A stretch of 40,755 nt of DNA from Ignavibacteria bacterium (GTDB lineage Bacteria; Bacteroidota; Ignavibacteria; Tepidaquicellales; OLB5): contig JABFSP010000224.1 in NCBI GenBank assembly GCA_013140565.1, positions 1 through 40,755 on the forward strand, written 5' to 3'. Below are positions 1-40,755 of the stretch, piece after piece. Positions within the stretch are counted from its first letter, which is position 1; each line of letters begins with the position of its first letter. The notes under the pieces are model-generated. The model ran no database searches, was not told where the DNA came from, and saw only the letters and a list, made by a program, of their open reading frames with translations. Both the position numbers and the translations under genes were made by a program.

Positions 1-141
1 ATGTGAATTTTGAATCAAAGAAAAATGCTGTTAATCACTTAAATTATAGCCAGTATTTATGAAAAAAGTATCATGGAATGATACTCTTACACAAAATAGA
101 ATTATTATATTTACATCAGTTAATAAGCAAAAATAAAAATT

Positions 142-414
142 ATGACATTTTATAAAGGTTTTACAATTGAGGGTATGAATCATATTTTATGCGGATTTGA
201 TTTCGAGGCAAGGAAATCATACAGGGATTCAAACAGAAGTATTACAATTAGAGCAGGCTTCAAAAACATTGAAAATGTTAATGATACCTTCAAAGAAATG
301 CTTAAAATAGTTGACACAATAGAACCTAAGCTTCCAAAAGAGATTAATGTTACAAAATTGCTGAAAAATGAATCAATAGCCAAATTTAGGATCGAAACTG
401 ATATACTGGATTAA
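142..414 (+). CDS. hypothetical protein
   Basis: 90 aa ORF ending at a bidirectional terminator. Confidence 0.7.
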   Translation: MTFYKGFTIEGMNHILCGFDFEARKSYRDSNRSITIRAGFKNIENVNDTFKEMLKIVDTIEPKLPKEINVTKLLKNESIAKFRIETDILD

Positions 415-440: not shown

Positions 441-800
441 TTAATACTTTTTCTTAGATTTCCGCAAGTAGTAACCGGCTTCACGCAGATCAGCTGTTGC
501 TGAAAAGTAATTCCAAACACTACCAATAAATCCAATTATTCCAGGGATGAACACCACAGGATTTATGTTTCCATCTTCTGTCTTGTCTACTGTCGCAATT
601 AATACACCAGTTGTAAGTGAGCCAACAAAACCAAAGAACCAGGCTTGACTAAAACCACCTGCAGCATCTTGCATTAATCTGCCAGCCATATCAATATTGT
701 ATTCCGCATCATTAAATCGTTTTTCAATCTTGGATGTATCCGTCTGAGCTATTGTGTTTGTTGTAAGAGTTAATGCTAAAACTAATAATAAAGTTTTCAT
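441..800 (-). CDS. exported/membrane protein (signal peptide + two hydrophobic segments), moron-like
   Basis: Start moved to MKTLLLVLALTLTTNTIAQ; GGAGG SD upstream; TATATTTG promoter motif at 830-837 on the minus strand. Confidence 0.75.
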   Translation of the reverse strand: MKTLLLVLALTLTTNTIAQTDTSKIEKRFNDAEYNIDMAGRLMQDAAGGFSQAWFFGFVGSLTTGVLIATVDKTEDGNINPVVFIPGIIGFIGSVWNYFSATADLREAGYYLRKSKKKY

Positions 801-1040
801 TTTGCCTCCATTTAAGTTATTGGGATATACAAATATAAGCATCTGAATGTATATTAAACACGGTATATAACCCTTGAGAGGCTTCAGGCAAATCAAGTAG
901 GATTTTATCACGGACAATAATTCAAAAACCGATGGTAAACAAGTTAGCTGAAATTGTGATTTTTTCTCGGAAAAATGCTTAAAACAGTTCGGAATAAACG
1001 TGTTTAATTAAAATTAAACAAAATTCGCTAAAAACGGGTA

Positions 1041-1072
1041 TTGTGGATACGGGATCCTATAGCGTATCTTTG
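1041..1072 (+). promoter_or_regulatory. putative promoter of the tRNA-like transcript with internal inverted repeat
   Basis: TTGTGG (1041) ... TATCTTTG (1065-1072, TAnnTTTG motif); GATACG/CGTATC inverted repeat at 1046-1068. Confidence 0.55.
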
Positions 1073-1149
1073 TGCTCTACCAAACTCGCATACCATCCTC
1101 AAAAGTGGTATGAGCATGCTCAGGGTTTCGAAATTATCAAAAAAAGGGG

Positions 1150-1180
1150 AAAGGGTGAAGAAATTCACCCTTTTTCTGTT
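1150..1180 (+). terminator. terminator/attenuator hairpin upstream of the tRNA-like gene
   Basis: AAAGGGTGAA-GAAA-TTCACCCTTT followed by TTCTGTT. Confidence 0.7.
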
Positions 1181-1189
1181 AAAAGAAGT

Positions 1190-1264
1190 GCCCTCGTAGG
1201 AAAACAGGATCAAACCGCGAGTTTGGTAGACTTGAGCATGTGGGTTCGAATCCCACCGAGGGTA
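1190..1264 (+). tRNA. tRNA-Thr(GGT) or tRNA-like RNA with degenerate D-arm; CCA not encoded
   Basis: Acceptor GCCCTCG/CGAGGGT; anticodon stem CGAGT/ACTTG with loop TTGGTAG (GGT at 1225-1227); T-arm GTGGG-TTCGAAT-CCCAC; D-stem only GG/CC. Confidence 0.8.
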
Positions 1265-1316
1265 CTACTTATATATTAAAAACAACATATCCTATTTGAA
1301 AGTTTTCGTAGAGTTG

Positions 1317-1347: not shown

Positions 1348-1382
1348 GACGTTAATACAAGTGTTTTCATAAGATAAATAAT

Positions 1383-1411
1383 AAAATAGCCAGTTGGAAA
1401 CTGGCTATTTT
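1383..1411. terminator. bidirectional terminator between the tRNA-like gene and the HEPN gene
   Basis: AAAATAGCCAGTT-GGA-AACTGGCTATTTT. Confidence 0.85.
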
Positions 1412-1896
1412 AAAACATCTATATACTTAATTTCCTTTTGCACTAGCCCCGGACATCTCATTTTTATTCTGCTTTTTATGAGCTTTCCTGGATATTTTTG
1501 ATTCAGAAAATGAATTAGATTATCCAAGTTCTTGATTGCTTTCAGCAAATGTTTATCATAGGTGAAGAATGCTCTTGTTTCGGTTGTTTTAATTTTGTCA
1601 TTACATAGATACCTCGATCTCTTTGATAACATTAAGAGTTTTTTATAAGAAAGATAAACCTCCTCAGATAATTTGCATTTACTGTTACCATTAAAAGGAT
1701 TTAAACAATTATCGACATCAACATGAGACCTGTAGTGGTGATTTATCTGGGAGGCAATGTGCGCGTTGACAAAGTGAACTGCTATATAAAATGCAGTAGT
1801 AACTTGCCAATCATAACAGTTATCGAAACCATTAATTTTTTCTAAAAATAATAAATTATGATTGGATTGATTAACATGTTCGGTAAAGTCTGCCAT
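1405..1896 (-). CDS. HEPN-domain protein (putative RNase toxin)
   Basis: Pattern H..QS.HN...DWQVTTAFYIAVH...RSH...SKRSRY resembles the UPF0332/HEPN-type FY..H, H and R..RY signature. Confidence 0.65.
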   Translation of the reverse strand: MADFTEHVNQSNHNLLFLEKINGFDNCYDWQVTTAFYIAVHFVNAHIASQINHHYRSHVDVDNCLNPFNGNSKCKLSEEVYLSYKKLLMLSKRSRYLCNDKIKTTETRAFFTYDKHLLKAIKNLDNLIHFLNQKYPGKLIKSRIKMRCPGLVQKEIKYIDVLK

Positions 1897-24760: not shown

Positions 24761-26083
24761 TTAAGATTTGAGGAAAGCATTGTTATTTAATAGCTTTCCA
24801 TTTTTGGTAACTTTGCATATTATCTTGTTATCATTACAGAATTTTATATATCTTTTAATAATGACATCTGCATACTTTGGGTCAAGTTCAATCAGGTAAC
24901 AAAACCTTTGCATTTGTTCACACCCGATTAAGGTTGATCCACTCCCACCAAAAGCATCTACCACTATGTCACCACGCTGCGAACTCTTCCTTAAAGCCCT
25001 CTCCGAAAGCCTCACTGGCTTTTGTGTTGGATGAACATAGTCATTCGTGTTATCACGATTAATAAACCATAAGTCCAAAACCTCAATAAAGCTATCGAAA
25101 TCAAGAGAATGTACATCTTTCAGATTTGCAAGTTTCTTATTTGTAAAATGTTTTTTCCCTTGCTTCCATCCAACAATGCACGGTTCAAAGCATCTGTGAT
25201 AATCCTGTCCATAAGAAAATACAAACCTTTCTTTAACCCAAATAACAGTCTGGCTTTTATGCCAAAGAGCAGATTCAAATGCCTGTAGGTTAATAACTAC
25301 ATTTCTATCAGCAAACCACCAATACAGAACACAATCATCAGTTGTGAATTTATAAAGGTTTTCCAGAGTTTTAGTATAAAGTTCTAAAGCCTCTTCCGGT
25401 TTTTTATTATCATTGAATATTTTACCGTCATTTCCATACTTACCTTTTGAATATGAATTACCGGACGGCGATTTATAATCAACGTTATAGGGAGGATCCG
25501 TATGAATTAATCTGGCTTTTTTGTTTTTAAACAATATTTTAAAATATTTCTCATCCTTTGAATCACCGCAAATAAGCCTGTGACCGTTCAGCTGATAAAT
25601 ATCACCAAGTTTGGTTTGAGGCTTTTTGATTTTTGCATATTCAGCCTCAGCATCAAAACCATCTTCCTTAACTGCCTCCGAATCAAAGAAGTGAAGTTCT
25701 TCTTTACCAAATCCCCAGCTTTTCAGGTCACCAAAGGAAAAAGAGGAAGCTAACTTTTCAAAATCCCATTCACCTGTATTCTTATTTGACCGGATGAGAT
25801 ATTCTTCAAATTCCTTTTTATTCAGTTTCCTGTTCGGGACCCGGGCTTCAATCATCTCATCACCACGGCCAAGATCAATTAAAGCCTTAACTCGCATATG
25901 ACCTGCAACAAGAGTATTATCTGTGTTTACTGCAACAATCTCAACATAATTGAATTTAATGATTGATTGTTTTAACTCTTCGAATTGAGACTCTGATATC
26001 TTTCTTGGATTATTTTCATATCCTTTAAGCTCAGATACTTTCCTCTTTTCGGTACTCCAAACTATTTTTTTATCTTTTTTCAT
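24761..26083 (-). CDS. ParB-like domain + N6A/N4C DNA methyltransferase
   Basis: YENNPR, AGHMR, TDPPY, HPTQKP, DAFGGSGST. Confidence 0.92.
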   Translation of the reverse strand: MKKDKKIVWSTEKRKVSELKGYENNPRKISESQFEELKQSIIKFNYVEIVAVNTDNTLVAGHMRVKALIDLGRGDEMIEARVPNRKLNKKEFEEYLIRSNKNTGEWDFEKLASSFSFGDLKSWGFGKEELHFFDSEAVKEDGFDAEAEYAKIKKPQTKLGDIYQLNGHRLICGDSKDEKYFKILFKNKKARLIHTDPPYNVDYKSPSGNSYSKGKYGNDGKIFNDNKKPEEALELYTKTLENLYKFTTDDCVLYWWFADRNVVINLQAFESALWHKSQTVIWVKERFVFSYGQDYHRCFEPCIVGWKQGKKHFTNKKLANLKDVHSLDFDSFIEVLDLWFINRDNTNDYVHPTQKPVRLSERALRKSSQRGDIVVDAFGGSGSTLIGCEQMQRFCYLIELDPKYADVIIKRYIKFCNDNKIICKVTKNGKLLNNNAFLKS

Positions 26084-29430: not shown

Positions 29431-31953
29431 TCATTTTACTTTAAGCATATCGAATAATGTAATCACATCTTTTTTTTTAGTGGCATCACTGCAGTACTGA
29501 GCGCCATCGGTGTATGATAACTCATTCAGTTCAATTCCTACACCATACCTATCCAGCTTTATACTTCTATACGGGACTGTCATTAATCCACCAAATGGAT
29601 CTAAAACTATCTCACCCTTGGAAGAGTACCTTTCAATGAGCCGGTCAACAATATCAAACTGCAGGGGACATAGATGCTTTTCAAGACCTTTAACAGCTTG
29701 GTTTGTATTGAGTGTGTGCATTCTTGTGACATCATCCCACACAAATGGACTGTTAGACACCACAGGAACCGCCATAAACGTCCGTGGCAGCTTTTTTAAC
29801 GCCTCCAGCGAGTGACAAATCCCTACATGTTCCTCAAAATCATAGATGTTTGATGTGCTGTACTCTTTCCAGCCTTTGCTTATTTGTGAAAGCGTTAACT
29901 TCATTATTTCATCCTGTGATAGCAGCCTGTTACCCCCTGAGCGCCAATACGAATGCGCATCAAGCTGCCATCTTTCCACAGGATAGTCCTCTTTTTTTTT
30001 AGTCACAGGTTCATCTGCATACCCGTTTGTCATATCTGTTGGCGGTTTCCTGAATATCAAAACATACTCCGGTAAACCACACCCCATTTTAGTGCCGTCT
30101 TTACACTGTTCAGTCCATCCAAGCCTGTGGGTTTGATTATTTTCCTGAACCACATCTGTAGTCACCGTGATTTTACCCATCAAGTGAAAACCATGCTTTT
30201 CAAAATGAGCTACCGTTTTACCTGAAAAATCAGATAGGGAAGTGAATCCTACACCGTTCTGATATGAATAACGGATCCTGTCCTTAACATGAACAGCGCA
30301 AATTCTACCCGGCTTTAAAACTCTTAACATCTGTGGTGTAGTAAAATCCATTTGTTTAAAGAATTCAGCATCACCATCATTATGCCCGAAATCGTGATAT
30401 GATTCACAATACTCATACTGGTCACTGAACGGAATCGAAGTGACCTCGAGGTGAACACTATCATCCGGCCATGAGGAAAGCTCTATGACATTATCATTAT
30501 TTATGCAGTGATAATAATCCGTTTTAATTTCTTGCCGCTTTACACCCATGGAGCGTTTTAAATCAGCTTTAATGTTTATAGAACTTAATCCGAACTTTTT
30601 AACAATCGATGTCATTTGCCTTTGCTGTTCTTCATAATCATTCCACTTACGCAGAATAACCCTTTTAATCTGACGTTCAGCATCAGTGTGAATGATATCA
30701 ATCCTGATTTTTTTACTTGCTGAATAAATTCTGACTACACGGTGAATCGCCTGAATAAATTCTTCAAATTTATATGTTATACCTGCAAAGATTTCCCAGT
30801 CACAATGATACTGCCAGTTAGAACCATACCCTGCAATTTCAGGCTTGGTAGATATATACTGATATTTACCTGCCGCAAAATCCATTAAATACTGTTCGCG
30901 CTCTTCCATCTTTTGTGTGCCAAAAACAGATTTAACAGCAGGTATCGCTTTCTGAATGGCTTTGCGTTCCTCTTCTAGGTGATGCCATATAGCGCAATGT
31001 TTATCCGGATGCTGGTTTAATAATTCAAGTACCTTATCAATACGGACCTGAATGCTCTCACGTTTTTCTTTGGCAGCTTCCTGTAGGCTTGATGAACCGT
31101 CTCTTATCAGTTTGGTTTGACCGTCCCTATCAGATAAGATTTCACGTTCTTTTAAAATCACTTCATGCCAGTTTACCTCTAATTCAGGTACTTCATAGCC
31201 TTTATCGGAATAACCCAGATCACTGGGTTTTGTGATGAACACTGCCCAGCTTGAAACCCACAGCCAGAATTCCTGAACCTTATGCGGATACAAAGTGAGG
31301 TCACCAGCCTTTTGTGAATTACGCTGAAAGAAACGGGTTAAAGCCTGACCACGGTCCATGATACCCAGGAAGTGAGCATAATTTAAAAGCTCTGTAAAGT
31401 CATTTGGTGATGGTGTGGCTGTGAATATATGCCTGTAAGGAATTACAGTGAATTCATTCATCATGTAATTTGTTACAACCGTATCAAGATTACGAATGCA
31501 ACTGAACTCATCACCACCGAAATAACCTATTTCCTTTGGATTGAACTTTGAACTTTTGATTTGTTCATAGTTACTGATAAACAGGTTTCTTTTATCCTTG
31601 AGGTAGAGTTTCATCATTTCATCATGACTTTTTACATAATGAACATTTAACCCAAGCATAGCAGCATCCTTAAAAAATTCAAGCCTTGCACCCAAAGGTA
31701 AACCCATCAGCGAGGGCATTTCTGTATGCTTTGCAATTAACCGAGCTATTTCAAGATTAATAACAGTTTTACCCAAAGAGAACTTTAAGAATGCACCCCT
31801 GCGACCACCTGCAATACACCACTGAATAACATCCTTTTGATGTGGTTTGCATATCGGGTTGATATCATCCTGTGATATTTCAAAGCCTGAGCTATCCGCA
31901 ATCTTTATTTTGCTCTCAAGGAAGCTGTAGTATGTGTTTAAATCTAAGTTCAA
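29431..31953 (-). CDS. SF2 helicase-like + N4C/N6A DNA methyltransferase fusion
   Basis: SLGKT, GDE, TATPSPND, QAIHR; TSIPF, HLCPLQ, DPFGG. Confidence 0.88.
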   Translation of the reverse strand: MNLDLNTYYSFLESKIKIADSSGFEISQDDINPICKPHQKDVIQWCIAGGRRGAFLKFSLGKTVINLEIARLIAKHTEMPSLMGLPLGARLEFFKDAAMLGLNVHYVKSHDEMMKLYLKDKRNLFISNYEQIKSSKFNPKEIGYFGGDEFSCIRNLDTVVTNYMMNEFTVIPYRHIFTATPSPNDFTELLNYAHFLGIMDRGQALTRFFQRNSQKAGDLTLYPHKVQEFWLWVSSWAVFITKPSDLGYSDKGYEVPELEVNWHEVILKEREILSDRDGQTKLIRDGSSSLQEAAKEKRESIQVRIDKVLELLNQHPDKHCAIWHHLEEERKAIQKAIPAVKSVFGTQKMEEREQYLMDFAAGKYQYISTKPEIAGYGSNWQYHCDWEIFAGITYKFEEFIQAIHRVVRIYSASKKIRIDIIHTDAERQIKRVILRKWNDYEEQQRQMTSIVKKFGLSSINIKADLKRSMGVKRQEIKTDYYHCINNDNVIELSSWPDDSVHLEVTSIPFSDQYEYCESYHDFGHNDGDAEFFKQMDFTTPQMLRVLKPGRICAVHVKDRIRYSYQNGVGFTSLSDFSGKTVAHFEKHGFHLMGKITVTTDVVQENNQTHRLGWTEQCKDGTKMGCGLPEYVLIFRKPPTDMTNGYADEPVTKKKEDYPVERWQLDAHSYWRSGGNRLLSQDEIMKLTLSQISKGWKEYSTSNIYDFEEHVGICHSLEALKKLPRTFMAVPVVSNSPFVWDDVTRMHTLNTNQAVKGLEKHLCPLQFDIVDRLIERYSSKGEIVLDPFGGLMTVPYRSIKLDRYGVGIELNELSYTDGAQYCSDATKKKDVITLFDMLKVK

Positions 31954-33320
31954 TTAAATGTTTGAATTCCTCTCTCCAAAAGCCAAGTCATAACTTGGGG
32001 ATTCACTGCATTTCCATATTGACGAACCTGTTCTTCGGGTGAACCTAATACGATATAATCATCATCGAAATTCATTCCTTTGTGAATTTCCTTAACCCCA
32101 AGCATCCTGTAATAACACTCTCCAATTTTAGGCTTTTGAAATGTTACAATTCCCGTGCGATCCTTAGTTGTAATAGTTCTGATTGCATCGCTCAAAGAAG
32201 TAAACTGTGGAGTCTTATAATAATAATTCAGGAAGCAATGCCAGGAGTCAGTTGTTACTATTCCGTGATATGGTACAGTCGTAACTGTACTTAATGCTTC
32301 CTGAACATCTCTCACGGTGCTCTTACCTTTATTTTCAACTATAAATGGAGTAACAATACCATGATGCCTGCCACCTGCAGCAATAGTATAAAGTGGTTCA
32401 AATATGCTGTAATCCTTTAAGGATCTATTTACTTTCAGCATAAAAGGCTCATCGTTGTATCTATCAATTCCCATTTGAATCCTGTTTCTTGTAGCAGGTG
32501 CTAACCTATCTCCAATTAATTTACCCGGATTAGTCCAGTCAATTATATTAAAGGCAGCGTACCGATAAGGTTCAACAACAGAATTACAAACAGAACAGTT
32601 ATAAGTATATTGGCGCCTTTGACCGTATGCACCCCAATGAAAATCATCTTTTTTCCAAGTTTGAATCGATTCATTATCATGTTCACATTTATGGCAATAA
32701 GCATTTGGAGTGAATTCAAGGTCAGGGATTCTATTACCTTTTTTCCAGAAAACAATATACATTCTATCCCTGCTTTGAGGTGTTGGATGAAAAAACATGC
32801 TGTTCAGATAATTGATTTTATAATCATATCCCTGCCTTGTCATCGCATTTAACCAATCAGGAAAATTAATCCACTTATAAGCTCCGGGCACATTTTCAAC
32901 TATTATCAATCCATAGTTATGGAATTCAGCAAACCGGGGAACATCCCACATTGTAGCTCTTGACCTTTCCTCAGCATCATCATTAAATAACTCAGACTGC
33001 GCTGCCTTAATTTTATCAAGTGATTTGTTCCGTGCGTAACCCTGCCAGGTACATTCAGGTGAAGTTAATAATATATCTGTTGTAGGGAATCTTTCCGGCT
33101 TTGATGTAGCCATGTTGGTTTGCACATGTAAAGTGTTAGGAAAATTACGTGCATGTGTTTGTAGTGCTATTTTCCAATGATTAACAGCAACCGTAATTTC
33201 AAGTCCACCGCCTAATTTAACGATTAAACGCTTTGCACCCTGTGATGTACCGCCAGCACCGCAGAATTGGTCTTTTATCTTTAATACAGAACCAGTCCTT
33301 TTATATATGAAATTTGCCAA
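31950..33320 (-). CDS. DNA cytosine-5 methyltransferase
   Basis: DQFCGAGG, SPEC, ENV, QSRDR, YGNAV. Confidence 0.92.
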   Translation of the reverse strand: MANFIYKRTGSVLKIKDQFCGAGGTSQGAKRLIVKLGGGLEITVAVNHWKIALQTHARNFPNTLHVQTNMATSKPERFPTTDILLTSPECTWQGYARNKSLDKIKAAQSELFNDDAEERSRATMWDVPRFAEFHNYGLIIVENVPGAYKWINFPDWLNAMTRQGYDYKINYLNSMFFHPTPQSRDRMYIVFWKKGNRIPDLEFTPNAYCHKCEHDNESIQTWKKDDFHWGAYGQRRQYTYNCSVCNSVVEPYRYAAFNIIDWTNPGKLIGDRLAPATRNRIQMGIDRYNDEPFMLKVNRSLKDYSIFEPLYTIAAGGRHHGIVTPFIVENKGKSTVRDVQEALSTVTTVPYHGIVTTDSWHCFLNYYYKTPQFTSLSDAIRTITTKDRTGIVTFQKPKIGECYYRMLGVKEIHKGMNFDDDYIVLGSPEEQVRQYGNAVNPQVMTWLLERGIQTFN

Positions 33321-40499: not shown

Positions 40500-40755
40500 T
40501 GGGTGAGATAGTAAAATATAATTCTAATGACCCTTTATTTGATGAAACTCATTTGGAAAATCTTTACAAAGATAATTACAAAGAATTTCATAATTTGTCA
40601 AATTACTTTAAGGACTTAGATATCAATATTTATAATGATAAGTTTTTACCAATTATTGTTAAGAAAAGTGTTTTTATCAAACTATCAGATAGATTTGATA
40701 AGTTTGAAAAATCGTTTACAGCAGAATTAAGAGATAATAAAATTGAATTTTCAAG
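40499..40755 (+). CDS. hypothetical protein, truncated by the window end
   Basis: ATG overlaps the repressor stop (TAATG); MGEIVKYNSNDPLFDE... open to the end. Confidence 0.6.
   Translation, partial: MGEIVKYNSNDPLFDETHLENLYKDNYKEFHNLSNYFKDLDINIYNDKFLPIIVKKSVFIKLSDRFDKFEKSFTAELRDNKIEFS

What the first reader, a model, noticed from the sequence alone, without database searches (positions are those of the whole stretch)
1041..1264. tRNA-like RNA whose anticodon arm is antisense to the 5' end of its own terminator-gated leader
Seen: TCTACCAAACTCGC (1076-1089), just after a TAnnTTTG promoter motif, is the exact 14-nt reverse complement of the anticodon stem-loop region GCGAGTTTGGTAGA (1217-1230). 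A second leader segment, CATGCTCAGG (1115-1124), can pair with the adjacent CTTGAGCATG (1231-1240) with one G-U pair. A CATACCA/TGGTATG hairpin lies between the two segments, and a strong terminator (1150-1180) separates the leader from the tRNA. Known: phage P4 CI RNA and P1 C4 RNA are RNase P-processed antisense RNAs that control termination of their own transcripts. Inference: this is a tRNA-scaffolded antisense regulator or self-attenuating tRNA switch, in which the mature RNA binds the leader to set termination or the leader masks the anticodon. It could serve as immunity or as a sensor of anticodon nuclease attack.
Basis: partly seen in the sequence, partly recalled or inferred. Interest (0 to 1): 0.85.

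Follow-up and report, generated by a model that had tools for sequence, protein, structure and literature searches.

The report
Odd phage tRNA with antisense leader
A temperate phage of a Bacteroidota bacterium carries an abnormal tRNA gene whose transcript probably begins with an exact antisense copy of the tRNA's own anticodon arm, which may keep the tRNA switched off, but no relative was found to test this.

Summary
Every element sits at the stated place, except the promoter-like motif, which is at 1065-1072. The 14-nt inverted match (1076-1089 / 1217-1230) is unique in the 3.73-Mb genome. Of 37 tRNAs in the genome, only this one has an exact upstream complement over 9 nt.

New context:
- With contig C310 the window closes into a ~42.9-kb circular temperate phage.
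- The real attachment site copies host tRNA-Asp and lies on C310, so this tRNA is not an integration scar.
- The tRNA is aberrant: 49.5 bits against 65-74 for eight host tRNAs. It has the acceptor stem of the host's tRNA-Arg(CCT) and a GGU anticodon, and two of its four D-stem pairs are A-A.
- The second pairing comes from an 8-nt direct repeat plus a 12-nt palindrome. It crosses the first pairing, so both cannot form around the folded hairpin.
- The leader also holds a decayed direct copy of the tRNA's middle.
- One RNA-library contig spans leader, terminator and tRNA.

Best reading (about 0.4): the leader, or the ~100-nt terminated RNA, masks the anticodon arm. Control of termination and an immunity role are not supported. 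The main rival is a functionless rearrangement relic (about 0.3). No homologous locus was found, so covariation could not be tested.

The parts
1041..1072 (+). Promoter-like site of the Bacteroidota type: TTG (1041-1043), 21 nt, TATCTTTG (1065-1072). The predicted start is about 1077-1081.
   Evidence: Sequence and motif search (the only TAnnTTTG on either strand between 838 and 1492). The consensus and the distance to the start are recalled from the literature, not tested. The host is Bacteroidota by at least 150 T9SS sorting domains.
1045..1069 (.). Inverted repeat GGATACG / CGTATCT (one G-T) with 11 nt between the arms, overlapping the promoter-like -7 box. It could be a protein-binding site.
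   Evidence: Sequence; drawn as a 7-pair hairpin in the fold.
1076..1089 (+). A': a 14-nt exact antisense of tRNA positions 28-41 (5' strand of the anticodon stem, the whole loop, first base of the 3' strand).
1089..1112 (+). Leader hairpin of 7 pairs (CATACCA/TGGTATG, or the register 1090-1096/1105-1111). Its arms look like decayed copies of A' and of its target.
   Evidence: the likeness of the arms was read from the sequence.
1098..1132 (+). Decayed, gapped direct copy of tRNA positions 21-61. It includes the exact 8-mer TGAGCATG (1111-1118 = 1233-1240) and the perfect 12-nt palindrome TGAGCATGCTCA (1111-1122).
   Evidence: Local alignment score 27; 1 of 5000 shuffles reached it..
1141..1179 (.). 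Two-way intrinsic terminator hairpin: A-run, 10-14-pair stem, T-run.
   Evidence: (flagged on the minus strand). An RNA-library contig reads through it.
1190..1265 (+). Aberrant tRNA gene with anticodon GGT at 1225-1227. The 7-pair acceptor stem, TA and discriminator A are identical to host tRNA-Arg(CCT). Only 2 of 4 D-stem pairs are standard. No CCA is encoded.
1217..1240 (+). Target stretch in the tRNA: A (1217-1230) followed by B (1231-1240).
1382..1412 (.). 14-pair two-way terminator. It ends the minus-strand late and lysis genes and closes the plus-strand tRNA unit.
   Evidence: self-match.

Best explanation
This is a small, self-contained non-coding unit on a circular ~42.9-kb temperate phage of a Bacteroidota host. 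Transcription probably starts at about 1077-1081, just after TTG-N21-TATCTTTG. The RNA therefore begins with 9-13 nt of the exact antisense of the tRNA's anticodon arm, followed by a hairpin, an A-rich spacer and a leaky two-way terminator. Transcripts that stop there would give a ~100-nt small RNA with a free antisense 5' end and a protective 3' hairpin. Transcripts that read through carry the aberrant tRNA, which has an Arg(CCT)-type acceptor stem and D loop, a GGU anticodon and a weak D stem.

In the precursor, and afterwards in trans, the leader pairs with tRNA positions 28-41. That opens the weak anticodon stem and hides the anticodon, so the tRNA cannot decode and may mature poorly until the leader is removed. 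Each tRNA is made with one leader and each terminated transcript adds another, so the mask should be in excess.

Shown: the elements, their uniqueness, the aberrant tRNA, that it is not the attachment site, and the in-silico preference for the masked fold. Weakly shown: read-through. Inferred: the start site, how often termination occurs, pairing in the cell, and the purpose.
For: - The 14/14 antisense match is unique in the 3.73-Mb genome. It is the only upstream complement over 9 nt among 37 tRNAs.
- It begins 4 nt after the only TAnnTTTG match in the intergenic region.
- The leader's other tRNA-derived pieces have decayed: a gapped direct copy matching roughly 70% of the tRNA positions it spans. 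The antisense piece is perfect with unlike flanks, which fits selection or a recent origin. This step is inference.
- With the leader from 1074, the precursor's lowest-energy fold is -66.6 kcal/mol with the 14-pair helix, against -56.7 with the cloverleaf forced. From 1079 the figures are -60.9 and -55.5.
- In trans, the co-fold is -62.2 kcal/mol, against -30.2 plus -24.4 for the two RNAs apart.
- The tRNA is abnormal, and so a plausible thing to keep in check. It scores 49.5 bits against 65.1-74.1 for 8 of 8 host tRNAs tested. It has the lowest ARAGORN score in the genome. Its acceptor stem equals that of host tRNA-Arg(CCT), but its anticodon is GGU.
- A 153-nt contig from a metatranscriptome run covers 1107-1260 across the terminator. 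Its 3 differences (1138, 1139, 1182) all lie outside the tRNA, segment 1115-1124 and the core terminator stem.
- It is not an integration site. The attachment site is C310:1131-1176, 46 of 46 identical to host tRNA-Asp and 190 nt upstream of the integrase gene.
- The 78-aa open frame over the locus has no protein relative.
Against: - No homologous locus was found, so there is no covariation and no proof of conservation.
- The start site is only a motif match, and the motif is not enriched in the window. A start downstream of 1089 would remove the antisense stretch.
- The energy argument is not specific. In the same test on 35 tRNAs of the genome, this one ranks second at -9.9 kcal/mol. One host tRNA reaches -10.8 and another -8.1.
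- The RNA evidence is one low-depth contig. DNA carry-over in that library is not excluded, and contigs cannot show RNA ends.
- The leader looks like scrambled tRNA pieces, so the match may be a by-product of rearrangement.
- Modification of A37 in a mature tRNA could weaken pairing (recalled, not tested).
- Thr codon use gives no reason for the phage to supply this tRNA: ACC plus ACT is 47% in the phage and 45% in the host.
Confidence: 0.4

Rival explanations
1. A relic without function. The leader is the debris of local duplications and a small inversion of tRNA sequence, perhaps sharpened by a template switch between imperfect inverted repeats. The tRNA may be a working or a decaying passenger gene, and the 14-nt match does nothing.
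For: - Leader 1098-1132 is a gapped direct copy of tRNA positions 21-61 (score 27; 1 of 5000 shuffles reached it).
- The reverse complement of 1072-1097 resembles the acceptor and D-arm part of host tRNA-Thr(GGT) (score 25; 4% of 400 shuffles).
- The second pairing is fully explained by an 8-nt direct repeat plus a palindrome.
- The locus is unique to this phage in everything searched (and the collection scans).
- The tRNA's weak D stem and low scores fit decay.
Against: - A perfect 14/14 stretch beside copies decayed to roughly 70% is unexpected if all are equally old and neutral. The chance is roughly 0.7^14, about 0.007 (inference).
- The stretch sits exactly where the transcript should begin.
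- The tRNA keeps the bases that hold the tRNA fold together: U8, A14, G18, G19, A21, the T loop, U33 and A37 (read from the alignment; their roles are recalled).
- The three differences in the variant avoid the tRNA.
Confidence: 0.3
2. A DNA inversion switch. The 14-bp inverted repeats are crossover sites for a recombinase. Flipping 1090-1216 would split the tRNA gene and turn the better side of the terminator towards the promoter, switching the tRNA off.
For: - Exact inverted repeats 127 bp apart are rare in this genome.
- A tyrosine recombinase gene lies about 1.1 kb away, with weak matches to invertase models at E 1e-6, far below their cut-offs.
- Inversion switches are common in Bacteroidota (recalled).
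Against: - The flippable segment holds no promoter-like motif on either strand, unlike the known promoter switches.
- That recombinase has its own attachment site next to it, matching tRNA-Asp.
- The assembly and 2 of 2 contigs from other runs that bridge the right-hand repeat (1097-1288 and 1107-1260) show the same orientation.
Confidence: 0.07
3. Control in the manner of P4 CI or P1 C4. The mature tRNA-like RNA binds the nascent leader and sets termination, acting as an immunity or timing factor.
For: It has a tRNA-like shape that RNase P should cut, a complementary site upstream in its own transcript with a terminator between them, and a position in the integrase and lysogeny part of the genome. 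The comparison with P4 and P1 is recalled.
Against: - Only tRNA rises above chance in Rfam.
- No plus-strand gene lies downstream. The next genes converge on the locus, and a second terminator closes the unit at 1382-1412.
- The leader has no alternative fold linking the antisense stretch to the terminator.
- A standard CI-like repressor is present.
Confidence: 0.05
4. The ~100-nt terminated RNA is the active product and acts on something else. The tRNA-like gene would be its decoy or sponge, or simply an RNase P cutting signal.
For: It has the typical build of a small RNA: a promoter, a single-stranded 5' seed, a hairpin and an intrinsic terminator. The reverse complement of 1072-1083 matches 12 nt of the D arm of host tRNA-Thr(GGT), and 10-11 nt of several other host tRNAs.
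Against: - The 14-mer and its 11-nt core have no other copy in the phage or the host genome.
- The part matching host D arms lies mostly upstream of the predicted start.
Confidence: 0.08

Closest known systems
Phage-encoded tRNA genes (passenger tRNAs of temperate and lytic phages)
   Same: A cloverleaf gene on a phage genome, above the Rfam tRNA cut-off and called by ARAGORN. No CCA is encoded, as in most tRNAs of the host genome.
   Different: - The score is far below the host's tRNAs (49.5 against 65-74 bits).
- Identity marks are mixed: an Arg(CCT) acceptor stem with a GGU anticodon.
- The leader is about 110 nt long, contains a terminator and begins with an exact antisense of the anticodon arm.
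- Codon use gives no supply argument.
P1/P7 C4 and P4 CI antisense RNAs (recalled from the literature; no paper on them was read here)
   Same: A small phage RNA with a tRNA-like, RNase P-type shape, and a complementary site in the same transcript.
   Different: No Rfam match other than tRNA. There are no downstream genes to gate. Here the tRNA-shaped RNA is the target of the leader rather than a regulator of an operon. The phage has a protein repressor.
T-box leaders
   Same: A leader RNA that base-pairs with a tRNA anticodon, upstream of a terminator.
   Different: No T-box match in Rfam. The pairing is 14 nt rather than a codon. There is no antiterminator and no site for the tRNA's 3' end. 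The leader precedes the tRNA gene itself, not a protein gene.
tRNA-like RNAs with a private upstream antisense RNA, noted earlier in this scan in other phyla (unchecked AI notes)
   Same: An odd tRNA or tRNA-like gene whose anticodon arm is matched by the start of an RNA encoded just upstream.
   Different: Those are in Patescibacteria, Thermoleophilia and other cellular genomes and are mostly alanine-type. No sequence likeness to this locus was found. I could not examine their sequences.
Partial tRNA copies at integration sites of mobile elements
   Same: Pieces of tRNA sequence lie next to a tRNA gene on a mobile element that carries an integrase.
   Different: The phage's attachment site is elsewhere (C310:1131-1176, tRNA-Asp). 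The exact piece here is inverted, not direct, and covers the anticodon arm rather than the 3' end.

Membership tests
tRNA (Rfam RF00005) | Cloverleaf scoring above the curated cut-off | tested here: met
   49.5 bits against a cut-off of 29, with the full model 1-71 matched. ARAGORN calls tRNA-Thr(GGT).
tRNA (Rfam RF00005) | Four standard D-stem pairs and a score typical of the genome's tRNAs | tested here: not met
   Two of the four D-stem pairs are A-A. Eight of 8 host tRNAs tested score 65.1-74.1 bits. Its ARAGORN score of 113.4 is the lowest in the genome.
tRNA (Rfam RF00005) | A 7-nt anticodon loop with U33 and a purine at 37, and the conserved bases U8, A14, G18, G19 and the T loop | tested here: met
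   Read from the alignment and the drawing. The roles of these bases are recalled.
tRNA (Rfam RF00005) | Charged with an amino acid and used in decoding | not testable with these tools
   The identity marks conflict. Acceptor stem, A20 and A73 match host tRNA-Arg(CCT), while G35 and U36 are as in tRNA-Thr, and the host's Thr tRNAs have U73. The synthetase rules are recalled.
P1 C4 / P4 CI type antisense RNA | Sequence and structure match to the described family | tested here: not met
   At E up to 10, 16 Rfam families match 900-1450. Only tRNA rises above chance, and none is a phage antisense RNA family.
P1 C4 / P4 CI type antisense RNA | Target sites that gate downstream genes of the same operon | tested here: not met
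   No plus-strand ORF of 80 aa or more lies between 415 and 3262. The neighbouring genes converge on the locus, and a terminator at 1382-1412 closes the unit.
T-box riboswitch | Match to the T-box model, with a specifier loop and an antiterminator | tested here: not met
   No T-box match at E up to 10. The folds show no alternative to the terminator.
Phage attachment site within a tRNA gene | Identity to the 3' part of a host tRNA, next to the integrase gene | tested here: not met
   Identity to host tRNA-Arg(CCT) is limited to the first 10 nt and the last 9 nt; blastn reported no longer match. The true site is C310:1131-1176, 46/46 with tRNA-Asp.
Invertible DNA switch | Inverted repeats around a promoter, with both orientations present in reads | tested here: inconclusive
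   The repeats are present, but the segment holds no promoter-like motif. Only one orientation appears in the assembly and in the 2 bridging contigs. Raw reads of the source samples were not examined.

The most novel reading that the evidence does not exclude
The unit is an RNA-only switch. A phage-borne tRNA of mixed identity (arginine-type body, threonine anticodon) could misread or disturb translation, and it is kept inert by its own antisense leader. It would be released only when the short-lived leader is lost, for example when transcription stops during superinfection or induction. It would then be the phage representative of a wider, undescribed class of 'odd tRNA plus private antisense RNA' modules seen in several bacterial phyla.
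Probability: 0.2. Interest if true: 0.8.

Novelty: new variant of a known kind. Interest (0 to 1): 0.5.

Why it matters
Phage tRNAs are usually explained as a codon supply or as replacements for host tRNAs cut by defence nucleases. A tRNA that is made already bound to an antisense copy of its own anticodon arm would be a different form of control, acting on the finished tRNA rather than on its synthesis. It would raise the question of what this tRNA does that needs restraining. Three full-text searches listed no paper describing a tRNA masked by its own leader. I saw only the listings and the starts of the abstracts. If the arrangement proves conserved, the locus is small enough (about 200 nt) for direct tests by mutation. 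If it is only debris from rearrangement, it is still a useful warning: exact leader/tRNA complementarity can arise from scrambled tRNA copies.

Tried and rejected
Integration scar or attachment site: rejected. C310 closes the circle and carries the integrase and a 46/46 match to tRNA-Asp.

Protein-coding reading: rejected. The 78-aa frame 1043-1279 has no relative among proteins of 42-137 aa.

Codon supply: rejected. Thr codon use is alike in phage and host.

Search for relatives, all without a usable homologue:
- INPHARED blastn with 900-1400 gave nothing. With the tRNA alone it gave only generic T-arm hits; 0 of 298 records cover 80% of the query.
- IMG/VR: three DNA patterns and three flanking proteins gave nothing.
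- Sixty relatives' genomes: 9 gave short weak matches of 25-82 nt at E 1.5e-4 to 0.01, and none spans the locus.
- Family 0 of 29 and order 0 of 115.
- The metagenome pattern gave 1 hit, L017. It is a 3' fragment like tRNA-Arg(CCT) on a GC-rich contig end, with no tRNA called and no leader complement.
- The genome-collection pattern gave 1 hit, L018, which is not a tRNA.
- Relatives of the flanking ORFs sit in other contexts without a tRNA: G004 for 441-917 and G006 for 1405-1896.

Neighbouring small proteins: no match in PADLOC or NCBIfam that would link them to tRNA.

Runs X4 and X6 covered other parts of 700-1700 only, so they say nothing about the locus.

The energy control showed that a preference for a fold other than the cloverleaf is not unique to this tRNA.

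Search-term format errors. Script assertion error, corrected.

Full report
WHAT IS THERE

- TCTACCAAACTCGC (1076-1089) is the exact reverse complement of GCGAGTTTGGTAGA (1217-1230).
- CATGCTCAGG (1115-1124) can pair with CTTGAGCATG (1231-1240), with one G-U pair.
- A 7-pair hairpin (1089-1095/1106-1112) lies between the two leader segments.
- A 10-14-pair hairpin at 1141-1175 with a T-run separates the leader from the tRNA.
- ARAGORN calls tRNA-Thr(GGT) at 1190-1265. Rfam's tRNA model matches 1190-1264 at 49.5 bits against a cut-off of 29.

The promoter-like TATCTTTG is at 1065-1072, with TTG 21 nt upstream. The motif alone is not enriched in the window: 56 matches against 58.9 expected. The promoter is therefore a reading, not a finding. 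The host does belong to Bacteroidota, where this promoter type applies: its genome has at least 150 T9SS sorting domains. The consensus itself is recalled.

IS IT MORE THAN CHANCE?

Yes.
- The 14-mer has only its two copies at up to 2 mismatches in the window, against 0.09 expected.
- It has only those two at up to 1 mismatch in the whole 3.73-Mb genome, and its 11-nt core has no third copy.
- The genome has 29 exact inverted repeats of 14 nt or more with arms 40-300 nt apart, and several of them are repeated palindromic elements.
- Of the 37 tRNAs ARAGORN finds in the genome, this is the only one with an exact upstream complement above 9 nt.

CONTEXT

The window is the whole contig C281 of a 428-contig genome. 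Contig C310 (2,568 bp) overlaps both of its ends: 225 and 186 nt at 99.5% identity. The two contigs close into a circle of about 42.9 kb.

The genome is a temperate phage. It has:
- a capsid-protease gene, an endolysin, a RecE-like exonuclease, a helicase and methyltransferases on the minus strand;
- a CI-like S24 repressor on the plus strand;
- a tyrosine integrase on C310 that ends at window position 62.

The phage's attachment site is C310:1131-1176. It is 46 of 46 identical to the 3' part of host tRNA-Asp and lies 190 nt upstream of the integrase gene. So the tRNA at 1190-1265 is not an integration site or scar. It is a phage-borne gene between a small secreted-protein-like ORF (441-917, minus strand) and the end of the late genes. 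A two-way terminator at 1382-1412 closes it off. No plus-strand gene follows it.

THE tRNA IS ABNORMAL

- It scores 49.5 bits, against 65.1-74.1 for 8 of 8 host tRNAs tested. It has the lowest ARAGORN score in the genome.
- Two of its four D-stem pairs are A-A.
- Its first 10 nt and last 9 nt are identical to host tRNA-Arg(CCT). That is also its nearest host tRNA of the same length, at 51 of 76 positions. Its anticodon, however, is GGU.
- It keeps the bases that hold a tRNA fold together, and a normal anticodon loop with U33 and A37.
- By the synthetase rules as I recall them, it is a good substrate for neither ArgRS (no C35) nor the host's ThrRS. It has a G1-U72 pair and A73, where the host's Thr tRNAs have U73.
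- Thr codon use does not differ between phage and host.

THE LEADER IS MADE OF tRNA PIECES

- Positions 1098-1132 are a gapped direct copy of tRNA positions 21-61 (score 27; 1 of 5000 shuffles reached it). This copy includes the exact 8-mer TGAGCATG.
- That 8-mer is extended in the leader to the perfect palindrome TGAGCATGCTCA (1111-1122).
- The reverse complement of 1072-1097 resembles the acceptor and D-arm part of host tRNA-Thr(GGT). The likeness is marginal: score 25, reached by 4% of 400 shuffles.

The two pairings are in crossing order. The first leader segment pairs with the 5' part of the target and the second with the 3' part. There are 0 and 2 nt of linker around the hairpin, so both cannot form at once while the hairpin is folded. 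Only the 14-nt helix, stacked on the hairpin, appears in the predicted fold.

DOES THE PAIRING MATTER?

In silico the precursor prefers the leader:anticodon-arm helix.
- From 1074: -66.6 kcal/mol, against -56.7 with the cloverleaf forced.
- From 1079: -60.9 against -55.5.
- In trans, the terminated leader and the tRNA gain about 7.6 kcal/mol on pairing.

A control tempers this. In the same test on 35 tRNAs of the genome (2 were dropped for short upstream sequence), this one ranks second at -9.9. One host tRNA reaches -10.8 and another -8.1.

One 153-nt contig from a metatranscriptome run covers 1107-1260. It bridges the terminator. Its three differences (1138, 1139, 1182) avoid the tRNA, segment 1115-1124 and the core stem. 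This is a weak hint of read-through and of constraint. DNA carry-over is not excluded.

The perfect 14-mer stands next to copies decayed to roughly 70%. That is hard to square with equal age and neutrality (roughly 0.007 by inference). It argues for selection or a recent origin.

WHAT COULD NOT BE DONE

No homologous locus turned up in INPHARED, IMG/VR, the metagenome and genome collections, 60 relatives, the family (0 of 29) or the order (0 of 115). Relatives of the flanking genes sit in other contexts without a tRNA. Covariation, the decisive test, is therefore open. Orientation was seen only in the assembly and two bridging contigs.

READING

I rank the explanations as follows:
- 0.40: the leader, or the terminated ~100-nt RNA, masks the anticodon arm of an aberrant tRNA.
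- 0.30: a functionless rearrangement relic.
- 0.08: a small RNA with another role.
- 0.07: a DNA inversion switch.
- 0.05: control of termination in the manner of P4 or P1.

Control of termination is disfavoured for three reasons. The tRNA segment lies downstream of the terminator. No alternative fold links the antisense stretch to the terminator. There is nothing downstream to gate.

Earlier notes of this scan describe similar 'odd tRNA plus private antisense RNA' pairs in other phyla. They raise my prior a little but are unchecked, and none resembles this locus in sequence.

Three full-text searches listed no description of a tRNA masked by its own leader. I saw only the listings and the starts of the abstracts. 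What I say of P1 C4, P4 CI, T-boxes, the promoter consensus and the synthetase rules is recalled, not read here.

Noticed in passing
window 1-186 and 40531-40755; L016 (G000:C310) 1-2568: C310 overlaps both ends of the window contig and closes a circular phage genome of about 42.9 kb. C310 carries a 358-aa tyrosine integrase (1368-2444). Its attachment site at 1131-1176 is 46/46 identical to the 3' part of host tRNA-Asp(GTC) on C140.
   Followed up: yes
L024 (G000:C260:3300-3520), about C260:3394-3441: A partial 3' copy of tRNA-Asp, 47 of 48 identical to the phage site, with no full tRNA called. It looks like the far end of an element integrated at tRNA-Asp in the host.
   Followed up: partly
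window 1045-1069: Inverted repeat GGATACG / CGTATCT with 11 nt between the arms, overlapping the promoter-like -7 box. It could be a repressor binding site for the tRNA unit.
   Followed up: no
window 1111-1122: Perfect 12-nt palindrome TGAGCATGCTCA in the leader, with no other exact copy in the window. Its first 8 nt repeat directly inside the tRNA at 1233-1240.
   Followed up: partly
L017 3157-3229 (metagenome record QMCD01015719.1): A GC-rich contig end holds a 3' fragment like tRNA-Arg(CCT). It is preceded by the same 12 nt (CAGGATCAAACC) that form the odd D-arm half of the phage tRNA. About 16 of 24 further bases are alike by my own manual alignment. It may be chance or a distant relative. 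It has no leader complement.
   Followed up: partly
window 441-917 (-) and L012 (G004:C369): The ORF next to the tRNA unit probably starts at an internal ATG and has a signal-peptide-like N-terminus (MKTLLLVLALTL...). A 60%-identical relative in another genome of the genus lies beside a different phage-like gene. It looks like a mobile passenger gene.
   Followed up: partly
window 24761-26083, 29431-31953 and 31950-33320 (-): Three ORFs match DNA methyltransferase families. One is fused to a ParB-like N-terminus and one to a helicase, which is a heavy load of DNA-modification genes for a 43-kb phage.
   Followed up: no
G000:C248:6203-6277 (host tRNA-Ile, anticodon TAT): In the energy control this host tRNA, with its 116-nt upstream sequence, prefers a fold other than the cloverleaf even more strongly (-10.8 kcal/mol) than the phage tRNA does. 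Its longest exact upstream complement is only 7 nt.
   Followed up: partly
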